From a virus: DNA of 64,000 nt. Within the stretch, counting starts at the first letter, position 1; every line of letters starts with the position of its first letter. The notes under the pieces were generated by a model. The model did no database searches and had not been told where the DNA came from. It was given only the letters and a program-made list of their open reading frames with translations. The translations under genes were made by a program, and so were the position numbers. The DNA is taken from the IMG/VR virus record IMGVR_UViG_3300031975_001631. One strand, 5' to 3'. Below, in pieces: positions 53,561 to 64,000 of this stretch.

Positions 53561-54318
53561 CAGATAACCCGCATCTTCTCGTGACCAACTCTGATACGAG
53601 GATCACACCAAATATCGATTCCTGCTTCGATTGCATCCAGACAGAAACTCACATCCTCTCCACACATGTCCTGGACATCCCCAGACTCAAAGACTTGCAT
53701 CTTGGGTGCAAACCATGGATACTTCATTTCAGCATGCTCAAAGACGCCATGCTTGATGAGTACCCATCCGAAACCTGTGTAGTCTACCGTGAAAGGCTTC
53801 TTACGCTTAGTCATCGTTTCACCAGTCTCATGATTCATGACACCACCGTTATTACGGAAGTCTCCTTCATCCAACCAATGTGCAACAGAAGTAGTACGAC
53901 CATCTTCAGTCATGTACCAACCAGCTGCAATCTGTTTGTCCATGAGAACCAACTGCAAGAACTTCTCAGTATTGAATACAATATCAGAGTCGATCCACAA
54001 CTGATAGTCATACTTCAGTTTGCCGTCCCATGGAATCTGATCTGGTCCACGCAATACATTTGCTCCAAGACACTTACAACGAGCAAAGTTAACCATGCTG
54101 CTGTAGTCTTGTGAAATCTGAATACTCGCGCCCATCTGTACTAAGTCGAAACTTAGCTGCAGGAACGACTTCATGAATTGATATGAACAACCCCGACCAG
54201 GAAGACAGAATACAATTGCTTTGCCCTTAAGCATCTCACGGGCAGCATCATAATCCCATTCTGGTTCTTTATCCTTTGCTTGGGGCGCTTTTGCTTTAAC
54301 AGTAAATCCTTTAGCCAT
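53560..54318 (-). CDS. GT-A fold glycosyltransferase-like protein
   Basis: VFCLPG, VNFARCKCL, YQLWIDSDIVF (DxD), VDYTGFGWVLIK, GEDVSFC, RVGHEK. Confidence 0.75.
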   Translation of the reverse strand: MAKGFTVKAKAPQAKDKEPEWDYDAAREMLKGKAIVFCLPGRGCSYQFMKSFLQLSFDLVQMGASIQISQDYSSMVNFARCKCLGANVLRGPDQIPWDGKLKYDYQLWIDSDIVFNTEKFLQLVLMDKQIAAGWYMTEDGRTTSVAHWLDEGDFRNNGGVMNHETGETMTKRKKPFTVDYTGFGWVLIKHGVFEHAEMKYPWFAPKMQVFESGDVQDMCGEDVSFCLDAIEAGIDIWCDPRIRVGHEKMRVI

Positions 54319-54364
54319 AACGATTAATTACGCATCATCATTCTAACAGTTTATATATGATCCG

Positions 54365-54532
54365 TCAATAGGACGCATCTGGGTCAACATCACCCCTTAC
54401 CATCTCAACTTCGTGATCTGTCAGGTCGATTTCACTCCCTTTGATTTTCTCTTTTAATTGAGCTGGTGTGAGATTAGCAAAGATACATTCATTCCCTGAA
54501 TATACATGAAAGATAGTCTCAGTCTTCATCAT
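54365..54532 (-). CDS. 55-aa hypothetical protein, not in ORF track
   Basis: MMKTETIFHVYSGNECIFANLT...; overlaps the upstream AbrB-like stop. Confidence 0.6.
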   Translation of the reverse strand: MMKTETIFHVYSGNECIFANLTPAQLKEKIKGSEIDLTDHEVEMVRGDVDPDASY

Positions 54533-54698
54533 ATTTCTCTTCTAGGAAGATTCCATCTACATCAAGATTCATCGCAACCTCAGTACCCTCATACCAATCT
54601 AATTCATTAATGAAAGACTCAGGCAGACTCACGATATACTCATCAGAAACAGGGTCGATCCTTACACTGGTTAGAATTCTGTGAGATTTTTTTTCCAT
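54519..54698 (-). CDS. AbrB/MazE/SpoVT-like DNA-binding protein, not in ORF track
   Basis: 59 aa; YIVSLPESFINELDWYEGTEVAMNLDVDGIFLEE fits the swapped-hairpin pattern xxxLPxxxxxxLxxxEGxxV. Confidence 0.7.
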   Translation of the reverse strand: MEKKSHRILTSVRIDPVSDEYIVSLPESFINELDWYEGTEVAMNLDVDGIFLEEKYDED

Positions 54699-54845
54699 TA
54701 CGCGAACCTGGGAGTCATTCTTATATATCAGAATTTTTTTTTATTCCATTGATATATCGATCGCGAATTCGGTTCGTTGTAGGTTACAAGGACCCATCAA
54801 ATTTAAACCACTGTCTAATAAGAACTGTGTGCGTACTAAGTGATA

Positions 54846-54907
54846 CTCAGAGTGTCATGATGTAGGTCCCCCTCAATGATACTCAGAATACCTCAGAATG
54901 TCTCAGA
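54846..54907 (+). repeat. Left CTCAGA repeat cluster
   Basis: CTCAGA at 54846, 54882, 54892, 54902 plus degenerate CTCAAT at 54872 (10-bp period). Confidence 0.9.
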
Positions 54908-54981
54908 GCTGTTACATAGTGCCTGTGAGTGATTGATAGTCAGCTGGCATGTGATTGGTGTTCTTGGTGTGATGTCTCCAT

Positions 54982-55010
54982 ATTATACCATGATGACTGC
55001 CATAATGCAA
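54982..55010 (-). promoter_or_regulatory. Sigma70-type promoter
   Basis: TTGCAT-17 nt-TATAAT with a TGn extension. Confidence 0.8.
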
Positions 55011-55044
55011 TTGTGTCCTGTCTGTAACATAAAAATCCTGATAC

Positions 55045-55073
55045 TTGACAAACTGCGAGTCTCATGGTACGCT
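55045..55073 (+). promoter_or_regulatory. Sigma70-type promoter on the + strand
   Basis: TTGACA-17 nt-TACGCT with a TGn extension; no + ORF follows. Confidence 0.65.
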
Positions 55074-55177
55074 CGCTTAGCTAACATCGTGAGAGACCAT
55101 TTAAGAGACTTTTATAACATTTAAAGAAAACACGCAAGTATATTTAAAAAGACATTTAATAACTTTCCGCATACTCA

Positions 55178-55204
55178 CTCAGAGAGCACTCAGAGACACT
55201 CAGA
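55178..55204 (+). repeat. Right CTCAGA repeat cluster
   Basis: CTCAGA at 55178, 55189, 55199 inside CACTCAGAGA units. Confidence 0.9.
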
Positions 55205-55221
55205 GAGCACTTAAATATCAC

Positions 55222-55410
55222 TTACTTGCCCTCTAGTCTAATCACCTTATCCCACTGATGAGGGTACACACAGAGGCAACATTTAGTCTCTCCATACTTA
55301 CTACCAGGAGTAGGATAAGAGTTAAAACAAACGGTAATATATGCAGGGTCTATGAAGTTAACATAGCCCTCAGTATTACCGATTTTAACTAACTCTCCTT
55401 CAGTGAACAT
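55222..55410 (-). CDS. Early hypothetical protein
   Basis: 62 aa, last ORF of the early block. Confidence 0.65.
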   Translation of the reverse strand: MFTEGELVKIGNTEGYVNFIDPAYITVCFNSYPTPGSKYGETKCCLCVYPHQWDKVIRLEGK

Positions 55411-55574
55411 GATGTTGTTAGTTGATAGTGTGTGGAGTCTAATAAGTCTGTGATATGTGTTGGTAACTGTCCTTTATCATTCCATGTCATTTTGTACTGT
55501 ACGATTAATGACACTAACAGGGAGAGTTGCTGATGTGATAATTGTACTGTACTGATTGATTGTTGGGTCATCAA
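55389..55574 (-). CDS. Early hypothetical protein
   Basis: 61 aa ORF in the co-oriented chain. Confidence 0.5.
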   Translation of the reverse strand: MMTQQSISTVQLSHQQLSLLVSLIVQYKMTWNDKGQLPTHITDLLDSTHYQLTTSCSLKES

Positions 55575-55646
55575 TTTTTAGGGGCGCGATGGCATCATTG
55601 TGAGAGTAATACTTAACAATCTCTTGATAGAGATTATCATCATAGT

Positions 55647-55814
55647 TTACCATTTAGAGAGACATTCAAGTTTAATATATGAGGGGACAGATTCATCCAC
55701 TGTTGTATCATCTTGTGGGAATTGTTGCCCATCTTTATTATACCACATATCATCAGGAATGTCATCCATAATTGAATCAATCATGTGGTCGAAAATGAAA
55801 TCTAGCTTTGCCAT
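55647..55814 (-). CDS. 55-aa acidic early protein, not in ORF track
   Basis: MAKLDFIFDHMIDSIMDDIPDDMWY... Confidence 0.55.
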   Translation of the reverse strand: MAKLDFIFDHMIDSIMDDIPDDMWYNKDGQQFPQDDTTVDESVPSYIKLECLSKW

Positions 55815-55826
55815 GGTTAGTTACCC

Positions 55827-56135
55827 TTATTCAGTAAGAATTTCTAAATCGATAACATCGATGTCCTCTAACATTATATCACAGATACGGGCGATTTCCT
55901 TTTGAGATGATGCACCGAGTCTAAAGATATGCTGATTGTTGTCAATCCTTATAAGTTGTAGATTGACGAACTCCTCGTATTTAGCGATGAAATTTGCAAT
56001 TGTACGATGTGAACCATCGATGAGATTCATGCCTACGACAGCAATAGCTTCAGAATGAAACTCGATACCTTGTGCAAGTCTTTCGATTGAAAGTTTGTCC
56101 TTATGTGACATAATAATCATGTGAGAGTTTGACAT
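55827..56135 (-). CDS. Early hypothetical protein
   Basis: Start likely at 56135, just after the upstream TGA. Confidence 0.6.
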   Translation of the reverse strand: MSNSHMIIMSHKDKLSIERLAQGIEFHSEAIAVVGMNLIDGSHRTIANFIAKYEEFVNLQLIRIDNNQHIFRLGASSQKEIARICDIMLEDIDVIDLEILTE

Positions 56136-56136
56136 A

Positions 56137-56292
56137 TCAGTTAGAAGGGAATTGAGCGAGTTTTGCATCAGCGAGAGCAGCAATCATAGTCCATACTTTC
56201 TCACCTGACAATTGCTCTTGATCACAAATATATTCTACATTATCTTCCATCAATTCTAATACTTCAAGTGCTTGCAATTCGAGATCTGTCAT
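56137..56292 (-). CDS. 51-aa acidic early protein, not in ORF track
   Basis: MTDLELQALEVLELMEDNVEYICDQEQLSGEKVWTMIAALADAKLAQFPSN. Confidence 0.7.
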   Translation of the reverse strand: MTDLELQALEVLELMEDNVEYICDQEQLSGEKVWTMIAALADAKLAQFPSN

Positions 56293-56338
56293 GATTAGAG
56301 AAGGATTAGGATTAGGACGATTGAATAAAATCTACTTA

Positions 56339-56524
56339 TTAAATCTTGTTCTTGCCCTTCCATTTACCGCGATTAGTTGACTTATCAAGCATTGCATGCA
56401 ATGTTGCTGGTAGGGGTTTATTTGGTACTTTCACAAAACGACCTTGGACTTTAAGAATAGTGTAGTTCATAAAATGATCAATAGGAGGACAATTGAATAA
56501 AAGCGGGCATAGCATGATGCCCAC
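56339..56524 (-). CDS. Early hypothetical protein
   Basis: 61 aa with a basic C-terminus. Confidence 0.55.
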   Translation of the reverse strand: MGIMLCPLLFNCPPIDHFMNYTILKVQGRFVKVPNKPLPATLHAMLDKSTNRGKWKGKNKI

Positions 56525-56540
56525 TCTTTCTTAGTTTTAA

Positions 56541-56888
56541 TCATGCGAAGATATAACCGTTGTCGAACTCTTCAGTTACAAATACTTTATCAGTACCATT
56601 TTGTCCTGCAAACTTACGAACAAACCACTTAAAGTTTTTCTGAAAAACACCTTCTCCAGCAACACAAAACTCATCACAAAGTGCATTGAGGCGAGATTTT
56701 GTGGTGTTAGTCTGCCAACCACCGTCGAAAATTGTCATGTCATTATCAGAAACCTCAGCGATCTTGTTGCCATGAAGGCGAACAACAGAGACGCCAGTTT
56801 CAGGATCAAAGTGAACAGAAGTGTTAGCAGACTGCCAGTCGATGTTCTTTTGAACAGCGGCACACATTTGGGATTCGATCTTACGCAT
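56541..56888 (-). CDS. Conserved phage early hypothetical protein
   Basis: VRLHGNKIAEV...DGGWQTNTTKSRLNAL; first gene behind a box promoter. Confidence 0.8.
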   Translation of the reverse strand: MRKIESQMCAAVQKNIDWQSANTSVHFDPETGVSVVRLHGNKIAEVSDNDMTIFDGGWQTNTTKSRLNALCDEFCVAGEGVFQKNFKWFVRKFAGQNGTDKVFVTEEFDNGYIFA

Positions 56889-56946
56889 GATGAGAGAAGA
56901 GAAGAGGTTTAGAAGGTGTGGAAGGTGTTGCCCCCTCCACTCCTTT

Positions 56947-57001
56947 AATATACACGGTTATGGGGGTCTGTGCCATGCTCTTGTGCCACTAGCTCAACTG
57001 G
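56947..57001 (-). promoter_or_regulatory. Early box promoter 1
   Basis: CCAGTTGAGCTAGTGG-33 nt-TATATT; 5' hairpin GTGGAGGG/CCTTCCAC downstream. Confidence 0.8.
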
Positions 57002-57003
57002 TT

Positions 57004-57228
57004 TTATTTGCCGATCCCCATGGGATCATCTGCCGTTGCCTCTAGTTCAGAAATACTATACATTGTTGTTGGAAAGTTATCACAGACAGCATCACATAGC
57101 GATACGATTAGATCCTCAGCTCCATCTGCTGTGTGACCATATTTTTTCTCTATAATAGATTCAATGTCTTCCATGAGTTGTTCTCTGGCAGTCATGATAT
57201 TATGGAGATGTTGCTTCATGAGTGACAT
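57004..57228 (-). CDS. Early hypothetical protein
   Basis: REQLMEDIESII...LCDAVCDNFP. Confidence 0.7.
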   Translation of the reverse strand: MSLMKQHLHNIMTAREQLMEDIESIIEKKYGHTADGAEDLIVSLCDAVCDNFPTTMYSISELEATADDPMGIGK

Positions 57229-57234
57229 AATTGA

Positions 57235-57483
57235 TTAGAAAGAAACTGCGAAAGTGTTGTTAAGTTTGTCTTGAGTTACTGTCTCTTTACCAGACAACAT
57301 GCTGAATTGATCAAACACAATCCAAGCATCTTGGTCTTCTGAGATAACAGCGAAACCGAAGCATCCTGCCATTGGCATCATATATTTACCATGCGATTCT
57401 GCCTGCCTAAGAGAACTAAAACCACGGGCAGTGATAGTCCAATCTTTACCAAAGTAAGCACAAATGAAATCTTTCATGATCAC
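57235..57483 (-). CDS. Early hypothetical protein
   Basis: 82 aa, coupled. Confidence 0.7.
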   Translation of the reverse strand: MIMKDFICAYFGKDWTITARGFSSLRQAESHGKYMMPMAGCFGFAVISEDQDAWIVFDQFSMLSGKETVTQDKLNNTFAVSF

Positions 57484-57644
57484 TCTTCGATGGTAACAGA
57501 TTGAATTATAAAGTTAGGATTGAGGCGATTACATGTTGCAATCGCATCTTCTTTTGTTGCTTTAATGTAACTTAGACAGTCATTCATAACCCAACCATTA
57601 GTACGATGAAATTGACCATGAAGAAGGAATTTAGTCTCTTGCAT
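57480..57644 (-). CDS. 54-aa early protein, not in ORF track
   Basis: MQETKFLLHGQFHRTNGWV...; stop overlaps the next start. Confidence 0.65.
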   Translation of the reverse strand: MQETKFLLHGQFHRTNGWVMNDCLSYIKATKEDAIATCNRLNPNFIIQSVTIEE

Positions 57645-57649
57645 TGTTA

Positions 57650-57847
57650 TCAACCTCCGAACATGTCATCAAATAGCTGTTGCCCAGAACGCTCATCTTG
57701 CTCTGCTTTCTTTGCATATTGTGCCATGCGTTCTAGTGCTTCTTCGCGAGAGATTGAGTCGGGGAAGTAATAGTCGCGACCTGATGGAGTTGTGTAACGC
57801 ATAATTTTGAAAATAGAGAGTGAATTAAGTTGATCTTTGATATTCAA
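57650..57847 (-). CDS. Early hypothetical protein
   Basis: 65 aa. Confidence 0.65.
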   Translation of the reverse strand: MNIKDQLNSLSIFKIMRYTTPSGRDYYFPDSISREEALERMAQYAKKAEQDERSGQQLFDDMFGG

Positions 57848-58044
57848 TTTGATGCCTCCATGAATACATCATAAAAACAATCAAATGCAGCAGGATCATG
57901 ACAAAATGAAGAGATTCCACTTTGATCAGAAACCCAATCGTATGCCATATCAATGTCGGCACCGGTCTCAATCACAAAAGATTGCAGACCTTGAAGAGCA
58001 GAAATAAAAGCAGAATCGTTGAGAAGCATTGTGGTTTTGTTCAT
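57844..58044 (-). CDS. Early hypothetical protein
   Basis: 66 aa, directly behind box promoter 2. Confidence 0.7.
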   Translation of the reverse strand: MNKTTMLLNDSAFISALQGLQSFVIETGADIDMAYDWVSDQSGISSFCHDPAAFDCFYDVFMEASN

Positions 58045-58050
58045 GAATGT

Positions 58051-58105
58051 AGTATGGCAGAGATTTGGGCGAATTGCAAGCGATAGTGGACACTAGGTCA
58101 ACTGT
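58051..58105 (-). promoter_or_regulatory. Early box promoter 2
   Basis: ACAGTTGACCTAGTGT-10 nt-TTGCAA-17 nt-CATACT. Confidence 0.82.
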
Positions 58106-58112
58106 CACAGGA

Positions 58113-58301
58113 TCAGAAAGGGTTGCCCCATGACTCATATTTTTTCATGGTAATATAACCTTCCTTGCAAAGTTCATCAGTAAAGTATGACCATGCCAAA
58201 CGCTTAGCGATTGAATCAGTTGCCATTTTTGTGCCCTTAGTATCACATTTCCAATTGTAACGAAATTGCTCCAGTGCTTGTGCTTTGGTGATGGATCGCA
58301 T
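58113..58301 (-). CDS. Early hypothetical protein
   Basis: MRSITKAQALEQFRYNW...AWSYFTDELCKEGYIT; start 58301 lies behind promoter 3. Confidence 0.75.
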   Translation of the reverse strand: MRSITKAQALEQFRYNWKCDTKGTKMATDSIAKRLAWSYFTDELCKEGYITMKKYESWGNPF

Positions 58302-58325
58302 GAGGTGTGTTCCTTTGACTCTTAT

Positions 58326-58380
58326 AGTATTGCAGATTTTGAGGCATTTTGCAAGAGCTTGAGTCCAGTTCCCCAACTGG
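58326..58380 (-). promoter_or_regulatory. Early box promoter 3
   Basis: Perfect palindrome CCAGTT-GGGG-AACTGG-10 nt-TTGCAA-17 nt-AATACT. Confidence 0.82.
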
Positions 58381-58529
58381 TTTGGGTTGGTTGCTGGTAT
58401 GCTGTCATGCTGTCGCCGTCATGCCTTGAGAACCCTTGCCACCACTAGACCAAAGACCTGTTTTTTGCATAATTCTACTAGAAAGGGGCAACAGGTCATC
58501 CCCGCCGCCCCCGATATGGAAAAATCAAT

Positions 58530-58844
58530 TTATACAAAGAATGCCTCTAATCCTGTATAATTAATCTTCATCGATGTGTATTGTCTGGTATCATTAATGT
58601 CGATCAATTCTCCCTTTCTAATTGAGTTGATGGGGGAGTAGTATTGATCTTTCTTTGGATTATAGAATCCCCAGATAGTCCGAACGCGATCAGTAGTGTA
58701 AGTATAGACATCTGGATGGCATAACCAAATACGAAGCAAATTGCGCTTGTATTCCTCACATTCATAGTAAAATCCATCCGGGGCTTCATGATAGAAACTC
58801 GGTGGTAGTTCCATCAGTTGATTCATGATCAGAGGTGTCTTCAT
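58530..58844 (-). CDS. Early hypothetical protein
   Basis: MELPPSFYHEAP...IWGFYNPKK...YSPINS; TGG-TATAAT at 58852-58857. Confidence 0.75.
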   Translation of the reverse strand: MKTPLIMNQLMELPPSFYHEAPDGFYYECEEYKRNLLRIWLCHPDVYTYTTDRVRTIWGFYNPKKDQYYSPINSIRKGELIDINDTRQYTSMKINYTGLEAFFV

Positions 58845-58907
58845 TGTCTTCATTATACCAGAAATCGTGCCAATCGTGAGGTGAGTTTGTCACATCTTCA
58901 ATGTTAT

Positions 58908-59051
58908 TCATTTACAATAAGATGGTTGAATTTGACACAATTTGTCGTTTCTCCTATCAACAATATCTTGCATATTGTTAGCAAGATCAATACAAAGAAA
59001 TGCTGCGAAAAGACAAATAGAAGAAACGAGAATAAGTCTAAAAGCTATCAT
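58908..59051 (-). CDS. 47-aa TM/secreted early protein, not in ORF track
   Basis: N-terminal hydrophobic helix, C-terminal LCQIQPSYC. Confidence 0.6.
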   Translation of the reverse strand: MIAFRLILVSSICLFAAFLCIDLANNMQDIVDRRNDKLCQIQPSYCK

Positions 59052-59200
59052 TGAACAATCTCCACTAATTTATCCATGACTGGTTTAAGATCATGTTCTT
59101 CAGCATCACTCAAATCAATATACATTTGTTCAATACACCATAGAATTACATCTGCTTGCGCTTTAGTAACTTCAATTGTACTGAATGTGGAGGTTGTCAT
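59048..59200 (-). CDS. 50-aa early protein, not in ORF track
   Basis: MTTSTFSTIEVTKAQADVILWCIEQMY...; ATGA overlap. Confidence 0.6.
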   Translation of the reverse strand: MTTSTFSTIEVTKAQADVILWCIEQMYIDLSDAEEHDLKPVMDKLVEIVQ

Positions 59201-59227
59201 TTTTCTGGAAAGTGTGTTCTTTACTAT

Positions 59228-59365
59228 TTAATCGATTTGTTTTTGAATTGTTGAATCATAGTAGTTCATCATCTTAGTGTCACGCTCTGCTAGGAAGTTT
59301 AAGAAACCTACAAGGGCAAACATAACACAAATGCCCGAAAGTCCGTATTGTGTAAATTTACTCAT
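59228..59365 (-). CDS. 45-aa TM early protein, not in ORF track
   Basis: GLSGICVMFALVGFLNFLAERD; ATGA overlap. Confidence 0.6.
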   Translation of the reverse strand: MSKFTQYGLSGICVMFALVGFLNFLAERDTKMMNYYDSTIQKQID

Positions 59366-59616
59366 AGAGTCTCTCCTAGTTCATTATCAATAGCATCCAC
59401 AATTGCTGTGTGAATGTGATCATAGTCTTGCAAGTTGACTAACACTGTCTCACAAACTTCTTTGGGTTGATATACCTCATTACCCTCATCATCCCACTTT
59501 ATAACATCTTCGCTAGTGTAAATCCAACCTGCACAAGGTGCATCTTCTCCCTGTTGTTCAATGAGGCTTTGCACCCGTGATTGCAGTGCTTTGAGTGAGT
59601 AGAACTGTGATGACAT
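59362..59616 (-). CDS. Early hypothetical protein
   Basis: LIEQQGEDAPCAGWIYTSEDV. Confidence 0.75.
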   Translation of the reverse strand: MSSQFYSLKALQSRVQSLIEQQGEDAPCAGWIYTSEDVIKWDDEGNEVYQPKEVCETVLVNLQDYDHIHTAIVDAIDNELGETL

Positions 59617-59667
59617 GATGTTAGATAGAAGAACGAAGAATGAAGCGATTAGAGTGAGTTAATCGCT

Positions 59668-59853
59668 TCAATCACCAACGAGGGCGTAAGTTTGGGCGAT
59701 AGCATCAGACTTAAAGCGTCTGCATAACTTAAACAAGAGTTTCAAGTCATCCGCAATCACATAACGAAACGAGTCTGATTCAATGATAAACTTATCATCC
59801 TCCAACCATACTTGTGGGAGTTGTTTCTTGTAGATTGGGAAATCAGTTGGCAT
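59668..59853 (-). CDS. Early hypothetical protein
   Basis: MPTDFPIYKKQLPQVWLEDDKF...; start 59853. Confidence 0.65.
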   Translation of the reverse strand: MPTDFPIYKKQLPQVWLEDDKFIIESDSFRYVIADDLKLLFKLCRRFKSDAIAQTYALVGD

Positions 59854-59857
59854 GATG

Positions 59858-60022
59858 TTAGTTAGCAGGAGTGGAAGTGATTTCTTTGATAGTGTCCCAA
59901 CCATGATATTCATGGAAGAGTTTATCATTCAGTTTGTGAGCATTTAGAGGTTTGATGTTACTCTTGCGGTCAAATCGAGTGACTTGACCATCTCTATACT
60001 CTATGCGAATGTTGTATAACAT
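59858..60022 (-). CDS. 54-aa early protein, not in ORF track
   Basis: MLYNIRIEYRDGQVTRFDRKS... Confidence 0.6.
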   Translation of the reverse strand: MLYNIRIEYRDGQVTRFDRKSNIKPLNAHKLNDKLFHEYHGWDTIKEITSTPAN

Positions 60023-60027
60023 ATCAA

Positions 60028-60282
60028 TCACCAACGAGTTTGAATCAGTGCAGAGTTGAAAAGTTGTGGTTCTGTGTGAAGATCAGTCACTTCATACTTA
60101 TAACCCTCAACACGACTATCAACCTCTTTCTCAAATGATTCTTTGTTGATGTAGGACTTAGATTGCATGTCATTCATGAATGTCACAGTCTTATACATCA
60201 GACGCTCGCTGATACTTCCATCAGCATACTTGACGGGATAGAAGTCAACAACCATGTTTCCGTGCTGTGCTGTGAGTTGCAT
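60028..60282 (-). CDS. Early hypothetical protein
   Basis: MQLTAQHGNMVVDFYPVKY; behind box promoter 4. Confidence 0.75.
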   Translation of the reverse strand: MQLTAQHGNMVVDFYPVKYADGSISERLMYKTVTFMNDMQSKSYINKESFEKEVDSRVEGYKYEVTDLHTEPQLFNSALIQTRW

Positions 60283-60311
60283 GTGGTGAGGTGTGTTCCT
60301 TTGACTCTTTA

Positions 60312-60366
60312 ACTATACACGATTTTGGGCGCAGCACAACGGGGGCTATGCCACTTCGGGAAGTGG
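60312..60366 (-). promoter_or_regulatory. Early box promoter 4
   Basis: Perfect palindrome CCACTT-CCCG-AAGTGG-33 nt-TATAGT. Confidence 0.8.
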
Positions 60367-60852
60367 TTGGATGACGGAGAACCGTGATTGATAATTGTAT
60401 GCAAACCGGGTACGATTGCCATGGATACCCCACCCCAACCAATTGTAAGCATGTTTCATGTAGAAATCTACTGATTGTTCCTCACTCCTGAGATAAAGTT
60501 CATAACGATTCCATTGAGGTTCGTTCACCATATAACGCAATTGTGTTTCAATAGTATCAACATTTCCACCATACTTTTTAGCAAAAGCTCCTAACCCATA
60601 ATAACGATTGGGAGAGGTCCATTGAATCAAACCGAACCCACCTGATTTACATCCATGATAACCAGTCCTTGCCCCACCCTCACAAACTAGCGTGTCAAAT
60701 TTAGACTCTTGTTTAATGTTGCCCAACACGACAGCGAGTGCATTTTGATTACGAATCCCTCGTTTCTGAAGAAACTCAAGTGTTTTTTGTTCGTTTGTGG
60801 TGCAGTCAAAACACACTACAATCGGTGCAGGAGGTTGATTGTAATTGATCAT
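60346..60852 (-). CDS. Phage tail lysozyme family cell-wall hydrolase
   Basis: AVVLGNIKQES (catalytic Glu), GGFGLIQWT, TQLRYM. Confidence 0.8.
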   Translation of the reverse strand: MINYNQPPAPIVVCFDCTTNEQKTLEFLQKRGIRNQNALAVVLGNIKQESKFDTLVCEGGARTGYHGCKSGGFGLIQWTSPNRYYGLGAFAKKYGGNVDTIETQLRYMVNEPQWNRYELYLRSEEQSVDFYMKHAYNWLGWGIHGNRTRFAYNYQSRFSVIQPLPEVA

Positions 60853-61061
60853 AAGAATAATTTAGAAGAAGAAATACAGAGTAAGAATGATAGCATAAGA
60901 ACCACATCCCATGATTTAGTTCTTATAAAGTATGGCACTGATATTGCATCAGCTACCAACATCATCATAGCACCTAGAGTGGTACTTACATGAAGAACAA
61001 TGAAGTATGATATGATAGCTAGAGCACTACCAATAATCCTGGCAATGACATCAATTTTCAT
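60849..61061 (-). CDS. Small multi-TM protein
   Basis: 70 aa, almost entirely hydrophobic; ISVPYFIRTKSWDVV. Confidence 0.7.
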   Translation of the reverse strand: MKIDVIARIIGSALAIISYFIVLHVSTTLGAMMMLVADAISVPYFIRTKSWDVVLMLSFLLCISSSKLFL

Positions 61062-61246
61062 ACTGAAGTCTCTCGTTTGATATTTTTTTCGATCTCTTTC
61101 AAATACCTTGCCTTGCCTGGTGTCATAGATGTAACGACTACAGCACCGTTAGGACCGTGCCAAGTGTAGTGTTTACCGATCCGATACAAGGTGAAATCGT
61201 AAGATTTCATTAATTGTCGCAGTTCTTTGGGGATCTTAGTGGTCAT
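61058..61246 (-). CDS. HicA-like (dsRBD-fold) protein
   Basis: KELRQLMKSYDFTLYRIGKHYTWHGPNGAVVVTSMTP matches the HicA helix-R-x-G-x-H-beta pattern. Confidence 0.6.
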   Translation of the reverse strand: MTTKIPKELRQLMKSYDFTLYRIGKHYTWHGPNGAVVVTSMTPGKARYLKEIEKNIKRETSV

Positions 61247-61267
61247 GGAGGTGTCTTAACCTCACAT

Positions 61268-61322
61268 ATTCTAGCACCCCACCACTAGAGCGGCAGGGTA
61301 GCTAGTCCGGTTCGAGAACTGG
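61268..61322 (-). promoter_or_regulatory. Early box promoter 5
   Basis: CCAGTTCTCGAACCGG-33 nt-TAGAAT (TGn extended); GAGGT/ACCTC leader hairpin. Confidence 0.78.
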
Positions 61323-61536
61323 TTGATTTCTCTAACCTTTTACAGAGATTTAAGGCAGACTGATAGTTACGGCAGACCTTGTATTGTCTGCCCTGATATA
61401 CAACTACGAATTTTTTGCTATTTCCAAGCGGGACCGCCGCCACTAACCCGTTTTTGCTCACATATCCAGAATATCTTAGTTGTGCATCAAGGATGTGAGT
61501 ATTTGTATGATAGACTGACTGATAGTTATCAGACAT
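61285..61536 (-). CDS. Early hypothetical protein
   Basis: AAVPLGNSKKFVVVYQGRQYKVCRNYQSA. Confidence 0.7.
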   Translation of the reverse strand: MSDNYQSVYHTNTHILDAQLRYSGYVSKNGLVAAVPLGNSKKFVVVYQGRQYKVCRNYQSALNLCKRLEKSTSSRTGLATLPL

Positions 61537-61690
61537 TCATATTCACACGCATGATTTGCACATCACCATACTGAGATTCAACGATTTGTTCAGCACCTTG
61601 TTGATCTTGGCACTGAACATTAACAGTTTGCATTCCAGTCCTAGCAGAGTAGAATGTCACTTCAGCAGAGCGGTTGTTGTTTCCAAACAT
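61529..61690 (-). CDS. 53-aa early protein, not in ORF track
   Basis: MFGNNNRSAEVTFYSARTGMQTVNV...AEQIVESQYG. Confidence 0.65.
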   Translation of the reverse strand: MFGNNNRSAEVTFYSARTGMQTVNVQCQDQQGAEQIVESQYGDVQIMRVNMNV

Positions 61691-61705
61691 AATAAAAAGA
61701 GAGAA

Positions 61706-61870
61706 TTAAGCAGATGGGACGGTAGTTAGAACAGTTTCTATTCTACCATTAGGAACATCAATTGTAAACTGATCCTTAGCAGAGTCAACAGTATCTGCTA
61801 AGATTACTGCCTCTAATAGAGGTCCAGAACCATTGACTTTGTAAGAGATTGTGTGCTTGAACTTTGCCAT
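61706..61870 (-). CDS. 54-aa early protein, not in ORF track
   Basis: MAKFKHTISYKVNGSGPLLEAVILADTVDSAKDQF... Confidence 0.65.
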   Translation of the reverse strand: MAKFKHTISYKVNGSGPLLEAVILADTVDSAKDQFTIDVPNGRIETVLTTVPSA

Positions 61871-61872
61871 TT

Positions 61873-63138
61873 TTATGCGAATGAGTGGGCGGGAAGACCA
61901 TCAACAAAGATGAGATCAATAACTTTTTGCAAACGATTGCGCGTTGCTTGTGATGCTTTGCCACACAGGGGGACAGTCACAACACCATGAGATTTACGAT
62001 ATTGTGAAAGCTTACCAGGAATAATCCTACCTTCAGCAATATCTTTTGCATCATCCTTATGTAGACGAATGACACGACCAATTGTCTGTGCCATCTCAAT
62101 CACAGGCAGATTACGCAGTAGAATAGTATGCGTTAGACCAGGAACATTGATACCCTCAGACAGAATAGAATAATGAAAGACGATGAACTTTTTCTGATCA
62201 TCAGCACCCCATTCTTGAAGAGTCTCAAAGAACTTATCACGACCTACTTTGTCACGATTGATATATGCACCATGCTTAGATGTGATGTGCATAATATCAT
62301 AACCCATCTCATTCAAACTATCAAGAATATCTGTACGAGAAAGCATTGCCCACAATACACGGGTGTTAGGTGCGGCAACTAGAATCTTTGCAGCATCATC
62401 ATCACCAAGGTCATCAATAATGTCTAGTACCATCTCACGATCTACATCATGTGCATTATGCTTGTTACGCACAAGTTCTGTCTCATGAACAACAAGCTCG
62501 GGAGGAATAATGCTGCCATTGTTGATAAGTTCAGGAGCAGGAACAATCTCCAGAGTATTACCGAACACGACTTGATTGTTCATGCCATTTGCAAAAGGAT
62601 TGCGAGAATACTTAGGAGTTGCAGTAAAGAAATACGAATTAGATGCTAGTTGTGAAGTAGCAGCAACACCGACAAAGTGATTCTTTTGAATTGCATTGTG
62701 TGCCTCGTCACAATACATAACATCGACTTTGATGCCACTGTCAACAACTTTATGCAAACTGTGATAAGTGGTGAAGATAAGTTGATGAACATTTACATTC
62801 ATGCAAACATCATCATGACGCTGAATTTGATCGACTTTAGTAGTCTTAAAATGAGAAGTCTCACCACTGTGAATGTGCATCACAGTAAAGTTGTTGTTGT
62901 ACTCATAACCATCGATATTGTCAAGATACTGCATGAACTCACTACAAAGTTGTGAGGCAAGCAGAATGCGAGGAGCAACGACTACGATAGTCTGAGCAAC
63001 ATTAGCTGCATCAAGTCTGCGAACACAATCTTCCATCATGATGACTGTCTTGCCACCACCAGTAGGAACATAGACGCAACCTTTGTTATTACCAGCAAGA
63101 GCAGTGAGAGCGCGTTGCTGGTGTGGTCGTAGTTGCAT
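61873..63138 (-). CDS. SF2 (DEAD/ResIII-like) helicase
   Basis: PTGGGKT, APRILL, TTYHS, DEAH, FTATP, LSEGINVPG, QTIGRVIR. Confidence 0.92.
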   Translation of the reverse strand: MQLRPHQQRALTALAGNNKGCVYVPTGGGKTVIMMEDCVRRLDAANVAQTIVVVAPRILLASQLCSEFMQYLDNIDGYEYNNNFTVMHIHSGETSHFKTTKVDQIQRHDDVCMNVNVHQLIFTTYHSLHKVVDSGIKVDVMYCDEAHNAIQKNHFVGVAATSQLASNSYFFTATPKYSRNPFANGMNNQVVFGNTLEIVPAPELINNGSIIPPELVVHETELVRNKHNAHDVDREMVLDIIDDLGDDDAAKILVAAPNTRVLWAMLSRTDILDSLNEMGYDIMHITSKHGAYINRDKVGRDKFFETLQEWGADDQKKFIVFHYSILSEGINVPGLTHTILLRNLPVIEMAQTIGRVIRLHKDDAKDIAEGRIIPGKLSQYRKSHGVVTVPLCGKASQATRNRLQKVIDLIFVDGLPAHSFA

Positions 63139-63160
63139 TGAAGTTCTGTCGTATGCAATA

Positions 63161-63215
63161 ATTATAGCAGATCCATATCTTTTCGCTTGTGTCCCGTGTC
63201 CAGTTTGCGAACTGT
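63161..63215 (-). promoter_or_regulatory. Early box promoter 6
   Basis: ACAGTTCGCAAACTGG-33 nt-TATAAT (TGn extended). Confidence 0.82.
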
Positions 63216-63323
63216 CTTAGTATGTTCGTACCATGGATGCTCATAAGGTTGATTCATATTATTCTCTACCCATCTTTTAAGAGATTCATATCTCTCTTTC
63301 CAAATTAGTGCTTCTTCAGTCAT
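63162..63323 (-). CDS. 53-aa early protein, not in ORF track
   Basis: MTEEALIWKEIYESLKRW...; 3' end runs through promoter 6. Confidence 0.45.
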   Translation of the reverse strand: MTEEALIWKERYESLKRWVENNMNQPYEHPWYEHTKTVRKLDTGHKRKDMDLL

Positions 63324-63516
63324 TTTTGTCTAATACTTCAATGTGTGATAGGAACGAGGAGGGATATTGAAACCATATTGATTGTGCTATATCCCAAGCA
63401 TCAGTATTCAGTGACTCACCATTAGCTAATACAACTTTGTAGTTGTGTCTATCGTAGGGTTCATCACTAGAATTAGTGAAATAGCGAGGATCACTAGGAT
63501 CAATTAGTTGAGTCAT
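63316..63516 (-). CDS. Early hypothetical protein
   Basis: IDPSDPRYF...DEPYDRHNYKVV...LSHIEVLD. Confidence 0.75.
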   Translation of the reverse strand: MTQLIDPSDPRYFTNSSDEPYDRHNYKVVLANGESLNTDAWDIAQSIWFQYPSSFLSHIEVLDKND

Positions 63517-63537
63517 CTAATCTTGGTCTATGTCCAT

Positions 63538-63594
63538 ATTCTATCACAACCTCATCATGTTCAGTGTTGTCTGTTGTGACAGTTTTGTAAGTGA
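63538..63594 (-). promoter_or_regulatory. Early box promoter 7
   Basis: TCACTTACAAAACTGT-35 nt-TAGAAT (TGn extended). Confidence 0.65.
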
Positions 63595-63647
63595 TTGTAT
63601 ACTTCTCAGATAGCAATCTAGCAGCAGTATGCAAAGCCCATGCTAAT

Positions 63648-63866
63648 TCATTGTCCTTCGACATGTTTCTCTGCCTTTAATTGTCTGAAGTATAGTTTAT
63701 AATAGTTTTTCTTTATAGATTCAATCTTGAGCATATCTTCTTCAAATCCTAGGTATTTAAGCATCTGATATGACCCCTCTAACTCACTGATTAGTCTTGC
63801 ATAGTTAGCAGAACATCTCTCCTGTCCACCAAATTCATACTTACCCAACTCCATACAAGATTCCAC
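63648..63866 (-). CDS. Hypothetical protein
   Basis: GKYEFGG...RLISELEGSYQMLKYLGFEEDM...YYKLYF. Confidence 0.7.
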   Translation of the reverse strand: MESCMELGKYEFGGQERCSANYARLISELEGSYQMLKYLGFEEDMLKIESIKKNYYKLYFRQLKAEKHVEGQ

Positions 63867-63999
63867 CTTTGAATGTTAAATATCGTCGCGGAAGTGCCGC
63901 ATAATGTGCATCCCATTTTGCAGGATATACTTCTATCTCCTTATCTATGAATACGGGGCTAACTTTACCATGACAACCATTTGGAACTGGTTTTACTCT
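63841..63999 (-). CDS. 5'-partial hypothetical protein
   Basis: ...RVKPVPNGCHGKVSPVFIDKEIEVYPAKWDAHYAALPRRYLTFKGGILYGVG*, open to the window edge. Confidence 0.6.
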   Translation of the reverse strand, partial: RVKPVPNGCHGKVSPVFIDKEIEVYPAKWDAHYAALPRRYLTFKGGILYGVG

Positions 64000-64000
64000 C

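What the first reader, a model, noticed from the sequence alone, without database searches (positions are those of the whole stretch)
56947..63594. Early regulon: seven promoters share a 16-bp palindromic operator fixed 33 bp upstream of the -10
Seen in sequence: minus-strand boxes at 56986-57001, 58090-58105, 58365-58380, 60351-60366, 61307-61322, 63200-63215 and 63579-63594. Their consensus is about (C/A)CA(G/C)TT-N4-(A/T)A(C/G)TG(G/T), and two are perfect palindromes. Six lie exactly 33 nt from a -10 hexamer and one lies 35 nt away. All have a TG-extended -10, but the -35 is often poor (CTGCCG, CAAGCG, TGGCAC). Inference: a dimeric factor centred near -53 activates or later represses host RNAP at all these modules. 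The site does not match NtcA (GTA-N8-TAC) or CRP (TGTGA-N6-TCACA). An activator of immediate-early genes would have to be host-encoded or virion-delivered. From memory, upstream motifs at T4-like cyanophage early promoters and PeSL cassettes have been reported, so the motif may be known; I know of no identified binding factor.
Basis: partly seen in the sequence, partly recalled or inferred. Interest (0 to 1): 0.8.

Follow-up and report, generated by a model that had tools for sequence, protein, structure and literature searches.

The report
Cyanophage early-promoter upstream palindrome box
The seven boxes are real: they are this phage's copies of a conserved palindromic element that sits a fixed 33 bases upstream of the -10 at early promoters of T4-like cyanophages, an element that I recall was already reported, with its binding protein still unknown.

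Summary
All seven boxes are at the stated coordinates. Half-site (A/C)CA(G/C)TT; 33 nt (one 35) to a -10-like hexamer; no usable -35. A matrix built only from unrelated viral contigs finds 9 box-plus-(-10) sites in this 180-kb phage against 1.15 expected. Five more such promoters lie outside the window (talC operon, DUF6267, a 234-aa gene, peptidase, cobS).

The architecture recurs in S-PM2, P-SSM2, P-SSM4, P-HM2, in degenerate form in Syn9, and in over 200 IMG/VR contigs, with spacing peaking sharply at 33. In P-HM2, published RNA-seq places the genes behind strong boxes in the Early cluster.

It is not an RNA or DNA hairpin: 66% of sites cannot pair at the central S position. It is not enriched in 81 host-family genomes, and is absent from T7-like and sipho cyanophages and T4 (one weak match in S-TIM5).

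Best reading: a site for a dimeric, probably phage-supplied protein that recruits host RNA polymerase to -35-less early promoters. No binder was identified.

I believe, from memory, that this is the "novel regulatory element" of Doron et al. 2016 (not readable here), so it is probably already known. First readers of this scan noted the same motif in two other genomes.

The parts
56947..57001 (-). Promoter module P1: box 56986-57001, 33-nt spacer, -10 TATATT 56947-56952. Drives the Kyano_Gp96 gene at 56541-56888.
58051..58105 (-). Promoter module P2: box 58090-58105, 33-nt spacer, -10-like CATACT 58051-58056. The ATG at 58044 is only 6 nt downstream, so the mRNA is either leaderless or the real start is the ATG at 58029.
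58326..58380 (-). Promoter module P3: perfect-arm box 58365-58380, -10-like AATACT at 33 nt (or TACTAT at 35). Drives the gene at 58113-58301, the orthologue of Syn9 gp68, whose own promoter keeps the same 33-nt geometry.
60312..60366 (-). Promoter module P4: perfect-arm box 60351-60366, lying in the last codons of the 168-aa lysozyme-like gene. 33-nt spacer, -10 TATAGT 60312-60317. Drives the gene at 60028-60282 (phrog_500) and the small ORFs that follow.
61268..61322 (-). Promoter module P5: box 61307-61322, 33-nt spacer containing a -17.6 kcal/mol hairpin, -10 TAGAAT 61268-61273. Drives the genes at 61058-61246, 60849-61061 and 60346-60852.
63161..63215 (-). Promoter module P6: box 63200-63215, 33-nt spacer, TGc TATAAT 63161-63166. 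Drives the helicase gene at 61873-63138 (ResIII/DEAD; Syn9 gp75 orthologue) and three small ORFs.
63538..63594 (-). Promoter module P7: box 63579-63594, 35-nt spacer, TGa TAGAAT 63538-63543. Drives the DUF7441 gene at 63316-63516. The module lies inside the 54-aa ORF at 63500-63664.

Best explanation
The boxes are this phage's copies of the conserved upstream element of the early promoter class of T4-like cyanophages (Kyanoviridae). Each promoter has three parts. The first is a pseudo-palindrome, (A/C)CA(G/C)TT-N4-AA(G/C)TG(G/T), often followed by CACA in relatives. The second is a spacer of fixed length (33 +/- 1 nt) but free sequence, which is GC-rich and often holds the terminator hairpin of the upstream gene. 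The third is a TATAAT-like -10. There is no -35. With the -10 at -12 to -7, the box is centred near -53.5.

Shown: the element is real, conserved, fixed in position and specific to this phage family. In P-HM2 it sits in front of genes measured as early.

Inferred: a sequence-specific dimeric DNA-binding protein occupies the box and recruits unmodified host RNA polymerase. This would be class-I-type activation, as with CRP at -61.5 or P2 Ogr at about -55, and it would compensate for the missing -35. Neither the host genomes nor the tested cyanophages of other families use the box, and early promoters must fire at time zero. The factor is therefore more likely supplied by the phage (packaged in the virion, or made from one of the first transcripts) than a host regulator with its own regulon.
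For: - Boxes, spacing and poor -35 in the window.
- Independent matrix: 9 hits against 1.15 expected, all on the transcribed strand.
- IMG/VR scan with a free gap of 20-48: 33 nt 51 times, 32 nt 12 times, 34 nt 16 times. The looser scan also peaks at 33, with 116 sites.
- Sites anchored only on the promoter-proximal half still show a conserved distal half.
- Arms are conserved while loop and spacer are at random identity.
- Orthologous promoters (window P3 and Syn9 gp68) keep 33 nt with unrelated spacers.
- One box serves two divergent promoters, each with a -10 at 33-34 nt, in L001, P-SSM2 (three pairs) and P-HM2. This fits a two-fold symmetric binder.
- P-HM2: strong boxes precede PHM2_060, 061, 064/065, 068 and 135, and a weaker box precedes 136 (cobS). 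All are Early (A), at least in the light. Several boxes weak in one half (and one strong box, before PHM2_148) precede Mid (B) genes (PMC5082946 S2 Table).
- Near-consensus sigma-70 promoters without boxes exist elsewhere in the same genome, so the box class is distinct.
- Host family: 42 boxes in 81 genomes against about 218 for the reversed control.
- The composite pattern is absent from P-SSP7, Syn5, P-SS2 and T4; S-TIM5 has one match.
Against: - No binding protein was found. None of the genes behind the boxes that were scanned has a recognisable DNA-binding domain.
- A second class in relatives places the box 28 nt from the -10, directly upstream of a perfect TTGACA-17-TATAAT. That is half a helical turn off and has no need for activation.
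- The 3' CACA extension is one-sided, so the site is not strictly symmetric.
- Marine picocyanobacterial promoters often work with a -10 alone (my own knowledge), so activation may not be needed.
- The host control (the pattern read backwards) is crude.
Confidence: 0.5

Rival explanations
1. Shut-off operator. The -10-only promoters are constitutively strong for host RNA polymerase. The box binds a phage early or middle protein that later represses the whole early class.
For: - Early transcripts in P-HM2 peak at 0.5 h and then fall (PMC5082946).
- The 28-nt class has a consensus promoter that needs no activator yet keeps the box.
- Boxes cluster on many tandem promoters, which would allow cooperative binding.
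Against: - A site centred at -53 does not overlap the polymerase core contacts.
- Repression by occlusion does not need spacing exact to +/-1 nt.
- In P-HM2 strong boxes tend to go with the earliest cluster and several half-weak boxes with Mid (B); with one exception (PHM2_148) this looks like dose-dependent activation.
- The box class lacks -35 elements although the phage uses them elsewhere.
Confidence: 0.2
2. Direct polymerase element. The box and CACA are read by host RNA polymerase itself (alpha C-terminal domains or sigma), like an UP element, with no extra factor.
For: - The position, -46 to -61, coincides with the distal UP subsite known from E. coli (my own knowledge).
- The element works at time zero with no need for a delivered factor.
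- The spacing to the -10 is strict.
Against: - Host genomes do not use the sequence (42 against about 218 for the control).
- The tested cyanophages of other families that depend on the same polymerase lack it.
- UP elements are A/T tracts, not a G/C-containing palindrome with a free N4 centre.
- The 28-nt class shows the box is tied to CACA and not rigidly to the -10.
Confidence: 0.12
3. Mobile promoter/terminator cassette (PeSL-like). On this view the main role is to provide recombination points for shuffling small ORFs, and the box is conserved by common descent.
For: - The modules repeat between small ORFs of a hyperplastic region.
- P3 and P4 share a 5' leader that also occurs in Syn9.
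- 39% of related spacers hold a hairpin, against 7% of controls.
- PeSLs are described as composite terminator/promoter elements (PMC4122927).
Against: - Only the arms and the spacer length are conserved; spacers and loops are at random identity. This indicates selection on function, not recent copying.
- There is no consensus -35/N17/-10 as in PeSLs.
- The element also fronts conserved genes (helicase, cobS, talC operon).
Confidence: 0.06
4. Nucleic-acid hairpin. The inverted repeat would act as an RNA stem-loop (terminator, processing or stability site) or as an extruded DNA hairpin, like phage N4 early promoters.
For: Two boxes fold as 6-bp stems (-6.5 and -5.2 kcal/mol). The terminator scan flags two boxes on the opposite strand.
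Against: - In 119 sites anchored on one half, positions 4 and 13 are C/C 53, G/G 26, G/C 36 and C/G 4. So 66% cannot pair in the middle of a 6-bp stem.
- Three of the seven window boxes have this mismatch and fold at 0 to -1.6 kcal/mol.
- No T-run follows on the transcribed strand.
Confidence: 0.03

Closest known systems
Early-gene 'novel regulatory element' of T4-like cyanophages (Doron et al. 2016, ISME J 10:1437; Syn9 and P-TIM40). Recalled from memory; the paper is not held here.
   Same: - A conserved element upstream of early genes of T4-like cyanophages, distinct from host-like sigma-70 promoters, and abundant in genomes and metagenomes.
- In Syn9 the same box/33-nt/-10 architecture stands before gp63, gp68, gp73 and gp75.
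   Different: - I could not compare logos.
- Syn9's boxes are more degenerate (for example ACACCT-N4-AAGTGT followed by CCAC) than this phage's CCAGTT-N4-AACTGG.
Class I activator-dependent promoters: CRP at -61.5; P2 Ogr / P4 Delta sites (TGT-N12-ACA near -55)
   Same: A dyad-symmetric site at a fixed distance upstream of a promoter with a poor -35. A phage promoter class switched on as a group.
   Different: - No activator is identified here.
- The sequence is unrelated.
- This class is early, whereas the P2 class is late.
- A variant class exists at 28 nt.
PeSL (promoter-early stem-loop) cassettes of T4-like phages (Arbiol 2010; Comeau 2014, PMC4122927)
   Same: Repeated composite promoter/terminator modules between small ORFs in plastic regions. 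Related cyanophage modules often carry a terminator hairpin.
   Different: - PeSLs have near-consensus -35/N17/-10 promoters and a true stem-loop.
- Here there is no -35.
- The palindrome is not a conserved stem.
- When a hairpin is present it lies between the box and the -10.
T4 early promoters boosted by the injected Alt protein
   Same: A phage-specific way to favour early promoters at time zero.
   Different: Cyanomyoviruses lack alt, modA, modB, motA and asiA (PMC2984593). T4 has no box.

Membership tests
Kyanoviridae early-promoter upstream element | Conserved element at a fixed distance upstream of a -10, without a -35 | tested here: met
Kyanoviridae early-promoter upstream element | Conserved across T4-like cyanophages and marine viromes | tested here: met
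   Present in S-PM2, P-SSM2, P-SSM4, P-HM2 and Syn9. 186 of 229 motif-bearing IMG/VR loci share proteins with this phage.
Kyanoviridae early-promoter upstream element | Downstream genes are expressed early | tested here: inconclusive
   Met for the relative P-HM2. There are no expression data for this phage, so it is inferred from orthology and architecture only.
Kyanoviridae early-promoter upstream element | Matches the published logo of Doron et al. 2016 | not testable with these tools
   Paper not held
PeSL cassette | Near-consensus TTGACA-N17-TATAAT promoter | tested here: not met
   22 sigma-70-like sites against 21.1 expected; only 1 of the 7 modules is flagged
PeSL cassette | Conserved stem-loop terminator as part of the module | tested here: not met
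   The box fails the pairing test. Only one of the seven spacers has a strong hairpin. In relatives 39% do.
Class I activator-dependent promoter | Dyad site at a fixed position upstream of a weak -35 | tested here: met
Class I activator-dependent promoter | Identified activator that contacts RNA polymerase | not testable with these tools
   No candidate with a DNA-binding domain was found
NtcA / CRP sites | GTA-N8-TAC or TGTGA-N6-TCACA | tested here: not met
   Box sequences read directly
Sigma-54 promoter | TGGCAC-N5-TTGC at -24/-12 | tested here: not met
   Relatives show CTGGCAC, but no TTGC follows and the -10 lies 29 nt further on. Cyanobacteria lack sigma-54 (my own knowledge).
Intrinsic terminator / RNA hairpin | Base-pairing preserved by covariation, followed by a T-run | tested here: not met
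   66% non-pairing at positions 4/13; no T-run

The most novel reading that the evidence does not exclude
Kyanoviridae supply their own box-binding protein, either packaged in the virion or made from one of the very first transcripts. It recruits unmodified host RNA polymerase to -35-less early promoters. This would be a family-specific early activator filling the role that Alt/Mod play in T4. It would explain why early promoters fire before the host-like promoters of middle genes. The element has no counterpart in the host genomes sampled or in the tested cyanophages of other families.
Probability: 0.3. Interest if true: 0.75.

Novelty: already known. Interest (0 to 1): 0.38.

Why it matters
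T4-like cyanophages lack Alt, Mod, MotA and AsiA (PMC2984593), so how they order early and middle transcription on host RNA polymerase is unresolved. This element is the handle on that problem. It is short, sharply defined, fixed in position, specific to the phage family and missing from host genomes. That makes it a clean bait for DNA-affinity purification and a clean predictor of early genes in uncultured marine phages. Identifying the binder would settle how the most abundant marine myoviruses start infection. The motif itself is very probably already published, so this window adds another instance plus some constraints on the mechanism: not a hairpin, no host regulon, and boxes shared by divergent promoters.

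Tried and rejected
- RNA or DNA hairpin: rejected, because the central positions do not covary.
- Host transcription factor with a host regulon: not supported. The box is rare in 5 marine Synechococcus genomes and in 81 genomes of the host family. The four host sites I inspected have unrelated, mostly intragenic contexts.
- AbrB/MazE-like 59-aa protein (window 54519-54698) as the general binder: unlikely. The Pfam match is weak and homologues occur in only 7 phages.
- phrog_552 small basic protein behind the 28-nt promoter class: no Pfam family and no informative Atlas neighbour.
- PeSL membership: defining features not met.
- Sigma-54, NtcA and CRP: no match.
- Rfam: nothing relevant in 54000-64000.
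- Doron et al. 2016 could not be read by DOI, PMC id or PubMed id. Nine literature searches found no text describing the motif.
- Two motif-bearing IMG/VR contigs without protein similarity to this phage (L139, L019) could not be classified. Occurrence outside Kyanoviridae is therefore not excluded.
Full report
WHAT THE WINDOW IS. The window is the reverse complement of positions 83844-147843 of a 179.8-kb, 39% G+C virus record. It differs from that record at 222 of 64000 positions. The nearest public phages are T4-like cyanomyoviruses (ACG-2014b, S-MbCM100) at about 78-82% identity over parts of the region. The region 56.5-64 kb is a run of small minus-strand ORFs plus a ResIII/DEAD helicase. 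It also holds a Phage_lysozyme2-like protein and families known only from these phages: Kyano_Gp96, DUF7441 and several PHROGs of unknown function.

OBSERVATION. The half-sites are (A/C/T)CA(G/C)T(T/A). Two boxes have perfect arms. Six are 33 nt from a -10-like hexamer and one is 35 nt away.
- Two hexamers (CATACT, AATACT) lack the initial T.
- Only five promoters have a proper TGn extension.
- The arms are 75% identical between sites. The N4 centres (25%) and the 33-nt spacers (31%) are at random identity, and the spacers are G+C-rich (52% against 39% for the window).
- A sigma-70 scan that requires a -35 finds no excess (22 against 21.1) and picks up only one of the seven.

IS IT MORE THAN CHANCE, AND IS IT COMPLETE? 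To avoid circularity I built the half-site matrix from the distal halves of IMG/VR sites that were anchored only on the proximal half, CACA and TATAAT. With it, the whole phage genome has 9 box-plus-(-10 at 32-34 nt) hits at threshold 12 (simulated mean 1.15, maximum 4). At threshold 14 it has 6 (mean 0.28). The convincing hits are all on the transcribed strand.

Five further promoters of the same build lie outside the window:
- before a DUF7294 gene followed by talC (genome 65151);
- before DUF6267 (80025; 32 nt, weak distal half);
- before a 234-aa gene (82874);
- before a 714-aa gene at the position of P-HM2's 'peptidase' (155276, weak);
- before cobS (157491).
So the regulon is larger than the finding states.

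CONSERVATION. The gaps were 33 nt (51 times), 34 (16), 32 (12) and 28 (22), with all others at 5 or fewer. A looser re-scan of those loci again peaks at 33, with 116 sites.

A second scan anchored only on AA(C/G)TGGCACA, 29 nt and TATAAT recovered a strongly conserved distal half: CCAGTT 37, ACACTT 37, ACAGTT 11, CCACTT 10 of 175. Of the 229 loci, 186 encode at least one protein similar to this phage's proteins.

The same composite occurs in S-PM2, P-SSM2, P-SSM4 and P-HM2. Syn9 has it in degenerate form before gp63, gp68, gp73 and the helicase gp75, at 32-33 nt. Window gene 58113-58301 is the orthologue of Syn9 gp68 (65% identity). The two promoters keep the 33-nt distance and the leader AAGAGTCAAAGG, while the spacers are unrelated. 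That indicates selection on geometry.

Single boxes serve divergent promoters, each with its own -10 at 33-34 nt, in L001, three times in P-SSM2, and at the strand switch of the P-HM2 early cluster.

LINK TO EARLY EXPRESSION. Thompson et al. 2016 (PMC5082946, S2 Table) clustered P-HM2 genes by RNA-seq time course. Early (A) comprises PHM2_056-074 plus PHM2_135 and 136 (cobS); PHM2_071 is Early only in the dark, and 135/136 only in the light. Strong two-half boxes stand before PHM2_060, 061, 064/065 (shared), 068 and 135, and a weaker box stands before cobS. Boxes with one poor half precede the Mid (B) genes PHM2_048 and 053, and a strong box precedes the Mid (B) gene PHM2_148. This is the only experimental support I have. 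It concerns a relative, not this phage.

WHAT IT IS NOT.
- Not a hairpin. In 119 sites free to vary, positions 4 and 13 are C/C 53, G/G 26, G/C 36 and C/G 4, so two thirds cannot pair in the centre of a 6-bp stem. Three of the seven window boxes have this mismatch.
- Not NtcA, CRP or sigma-54.
- Not a PeSL in the defined sense. PeSLs carry near-consensus -35/N17/-10 promoters and a true stem-loop. The resemblance in lifestyle is real, though. In relatives 39% of spacers fold at -8 kcal/mol or better, against 7% of controls, and 17% add a T-run. So the terminator of the upstream gene often sits between box and -10.
- No Rfam family matches.

WHO READS IT?
- Host genomes do not use the box. There are 0-2 copies in each of five marine Synechococcus genomes, and 42 in 81 genomes of the host family, against about 218 for the reversed pattern. 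The four copies I inspected are in unrelated contexts. This phage has 3 strict copies in 180 kb and none of the control pattern.
- Cyanophages of other families on the same hosts (P-SSP7, Syn5, P-SS2) and T4 have none; S-TIM5 has one.
- Near-consensus sigma-70 promoters without boxes exist elsewhere in this genome. The box class is therefore a separate class that lacks a -35.

Together these points favour a factor specific to this phage family over a host regulator or an intrinsic polymerase element. They do not prove it.

I found no candidate:
- None of the box-driven genes that were scanned has a recognisable DNA-binding domain.
- The small basic phrog_552 protein is uninformative. In relatives it sits behind the 28-nt class, where the box is followed by CACAC and then a perfect TTGACA-17-TATAAT.

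MECHANISM. With the -10 at -12 to -7 the box spans -61 to -46. Five features are those of class-I activator sites such as CRP or P2 Ogr (my own knowledge): strict spacing, absence of a -35, two-fold symmetry, sharing by divergent promoters, and a rough gradation of timing with box quality. I therefore commit to activation by a dimeric, probably phage-supplied protein, at about 50%. Rivals are a shut-off operator (20%), direct polymerase recognition (12%), a recombination cassette as the primary role (6%) and a hairpin (3%). The 28-nt class and the one-sided CACA extension are not explained by a simple symmetric class-I model.

NOVELTY. From memory, the abstract of Doron et al. 2016 states that a novel regulatory element controls early-gene transcription in Syn9 and P-TIM40, that host-like promoters drive middle genes, and that these elements are abundant and conserved in T4-like cyanophages. 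The element here is the only conserved feature before Syn9's and P-HM2's early-region genes. I put about 85% on the two being the same thing. I could not read the paper. First readers of this scan noted the same motif in two other genomes. I file it as already known. The binder remains an open and tractable question.

Noticed in passing
window 58302-58325 and 60283-60311; L121 (Syn9) upstream of 46370 and 47287: P3 and P4 share a near-identical 5' leader (AGAGTCAAAGGAACACACCTCA). It also follows the -10 of the Syn9 gp63 and gp68 promoters. It may be a conserved translation-initiation or leader cassette that travels with the promoter.
   Followed up: partly
window 58044-58056: The -10-like CATACT of P2 ends only 6 nt before the ATG at 58044. 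The mRNA is either leaderless or the true start is the in-frame ATG at 58029.
   Followed up: no
IMG/VR loci such as L006:2920-3208 and L036; P-SSM4 173202-173250: A second promoter class: the box and CACAC are followed directly by a perfect TTGACA-17-TATAAT, with the box 28 nt from the -10. It stands mostly before a conserved 71-aa basic protein (phrog_552). In this phage the homologue (genome 5659-5880) has only the proximal half-box, at 33 nt.
   Followed up: partly
81 host-family genomes: The box pattern is about five-fold rarer than its reversed control in Synechococcus/Prochlorococcus-family genomes (42 against about 218). This could be composition bias or avoidance; it was not resolved.
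   Followed up: no
related sites, 5 nt before the -10; genome 157491; Syn9 gp75 promoter: Many related promoters have TGCCC directly before TATAAT, with TG at about -17/-16 rather than the canonical -15/-14. CCC is the commonest triplet before the -10. Spacers are C-rich.
   Followed up: no
window 61274-61306: The P5 spacer forms a strong hairpin (-17.6 kcal/mol) inside the last codons of the upstream 83-aa ORF, with no T-run after it.
   Followed up: no
window 58381-58529: A 150-nt gap between genes lies upstream of the P3 box. It holds a TAGAAT preceded by ATGACC at 16 nt, and a possible 19-codon ORF. Its function is unknown.
   Followed up: no
window 54519-54698; P-SSM2 69246-69407: The AbrB/MazE-like 59-aa protein occurs sporadically, in 7 phages. 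In P-SSM2 its homologue lies about 435 nt downstream of a box promoter (68758-68811). Here it follows a sigma-70-type promoter without a box.
   Followed up: partly
window 59641-59670 (minus strand): An 11-bp stem-loop with a T-rich tail stands right after the gene ending at 59668. It is a likely terminator inside the long P4 transcription unit.
   Followed up: no
L139/L187 and L156 (IMG/VR contigs of 35 and 50 kb): These contigs carry two or three box promoters each but show no protein similarity to this phage at E below 1e-8 and no PHROG hits for their larger ORFs. They may be a divergent lineage that uses the same element.
   Followed up: partly
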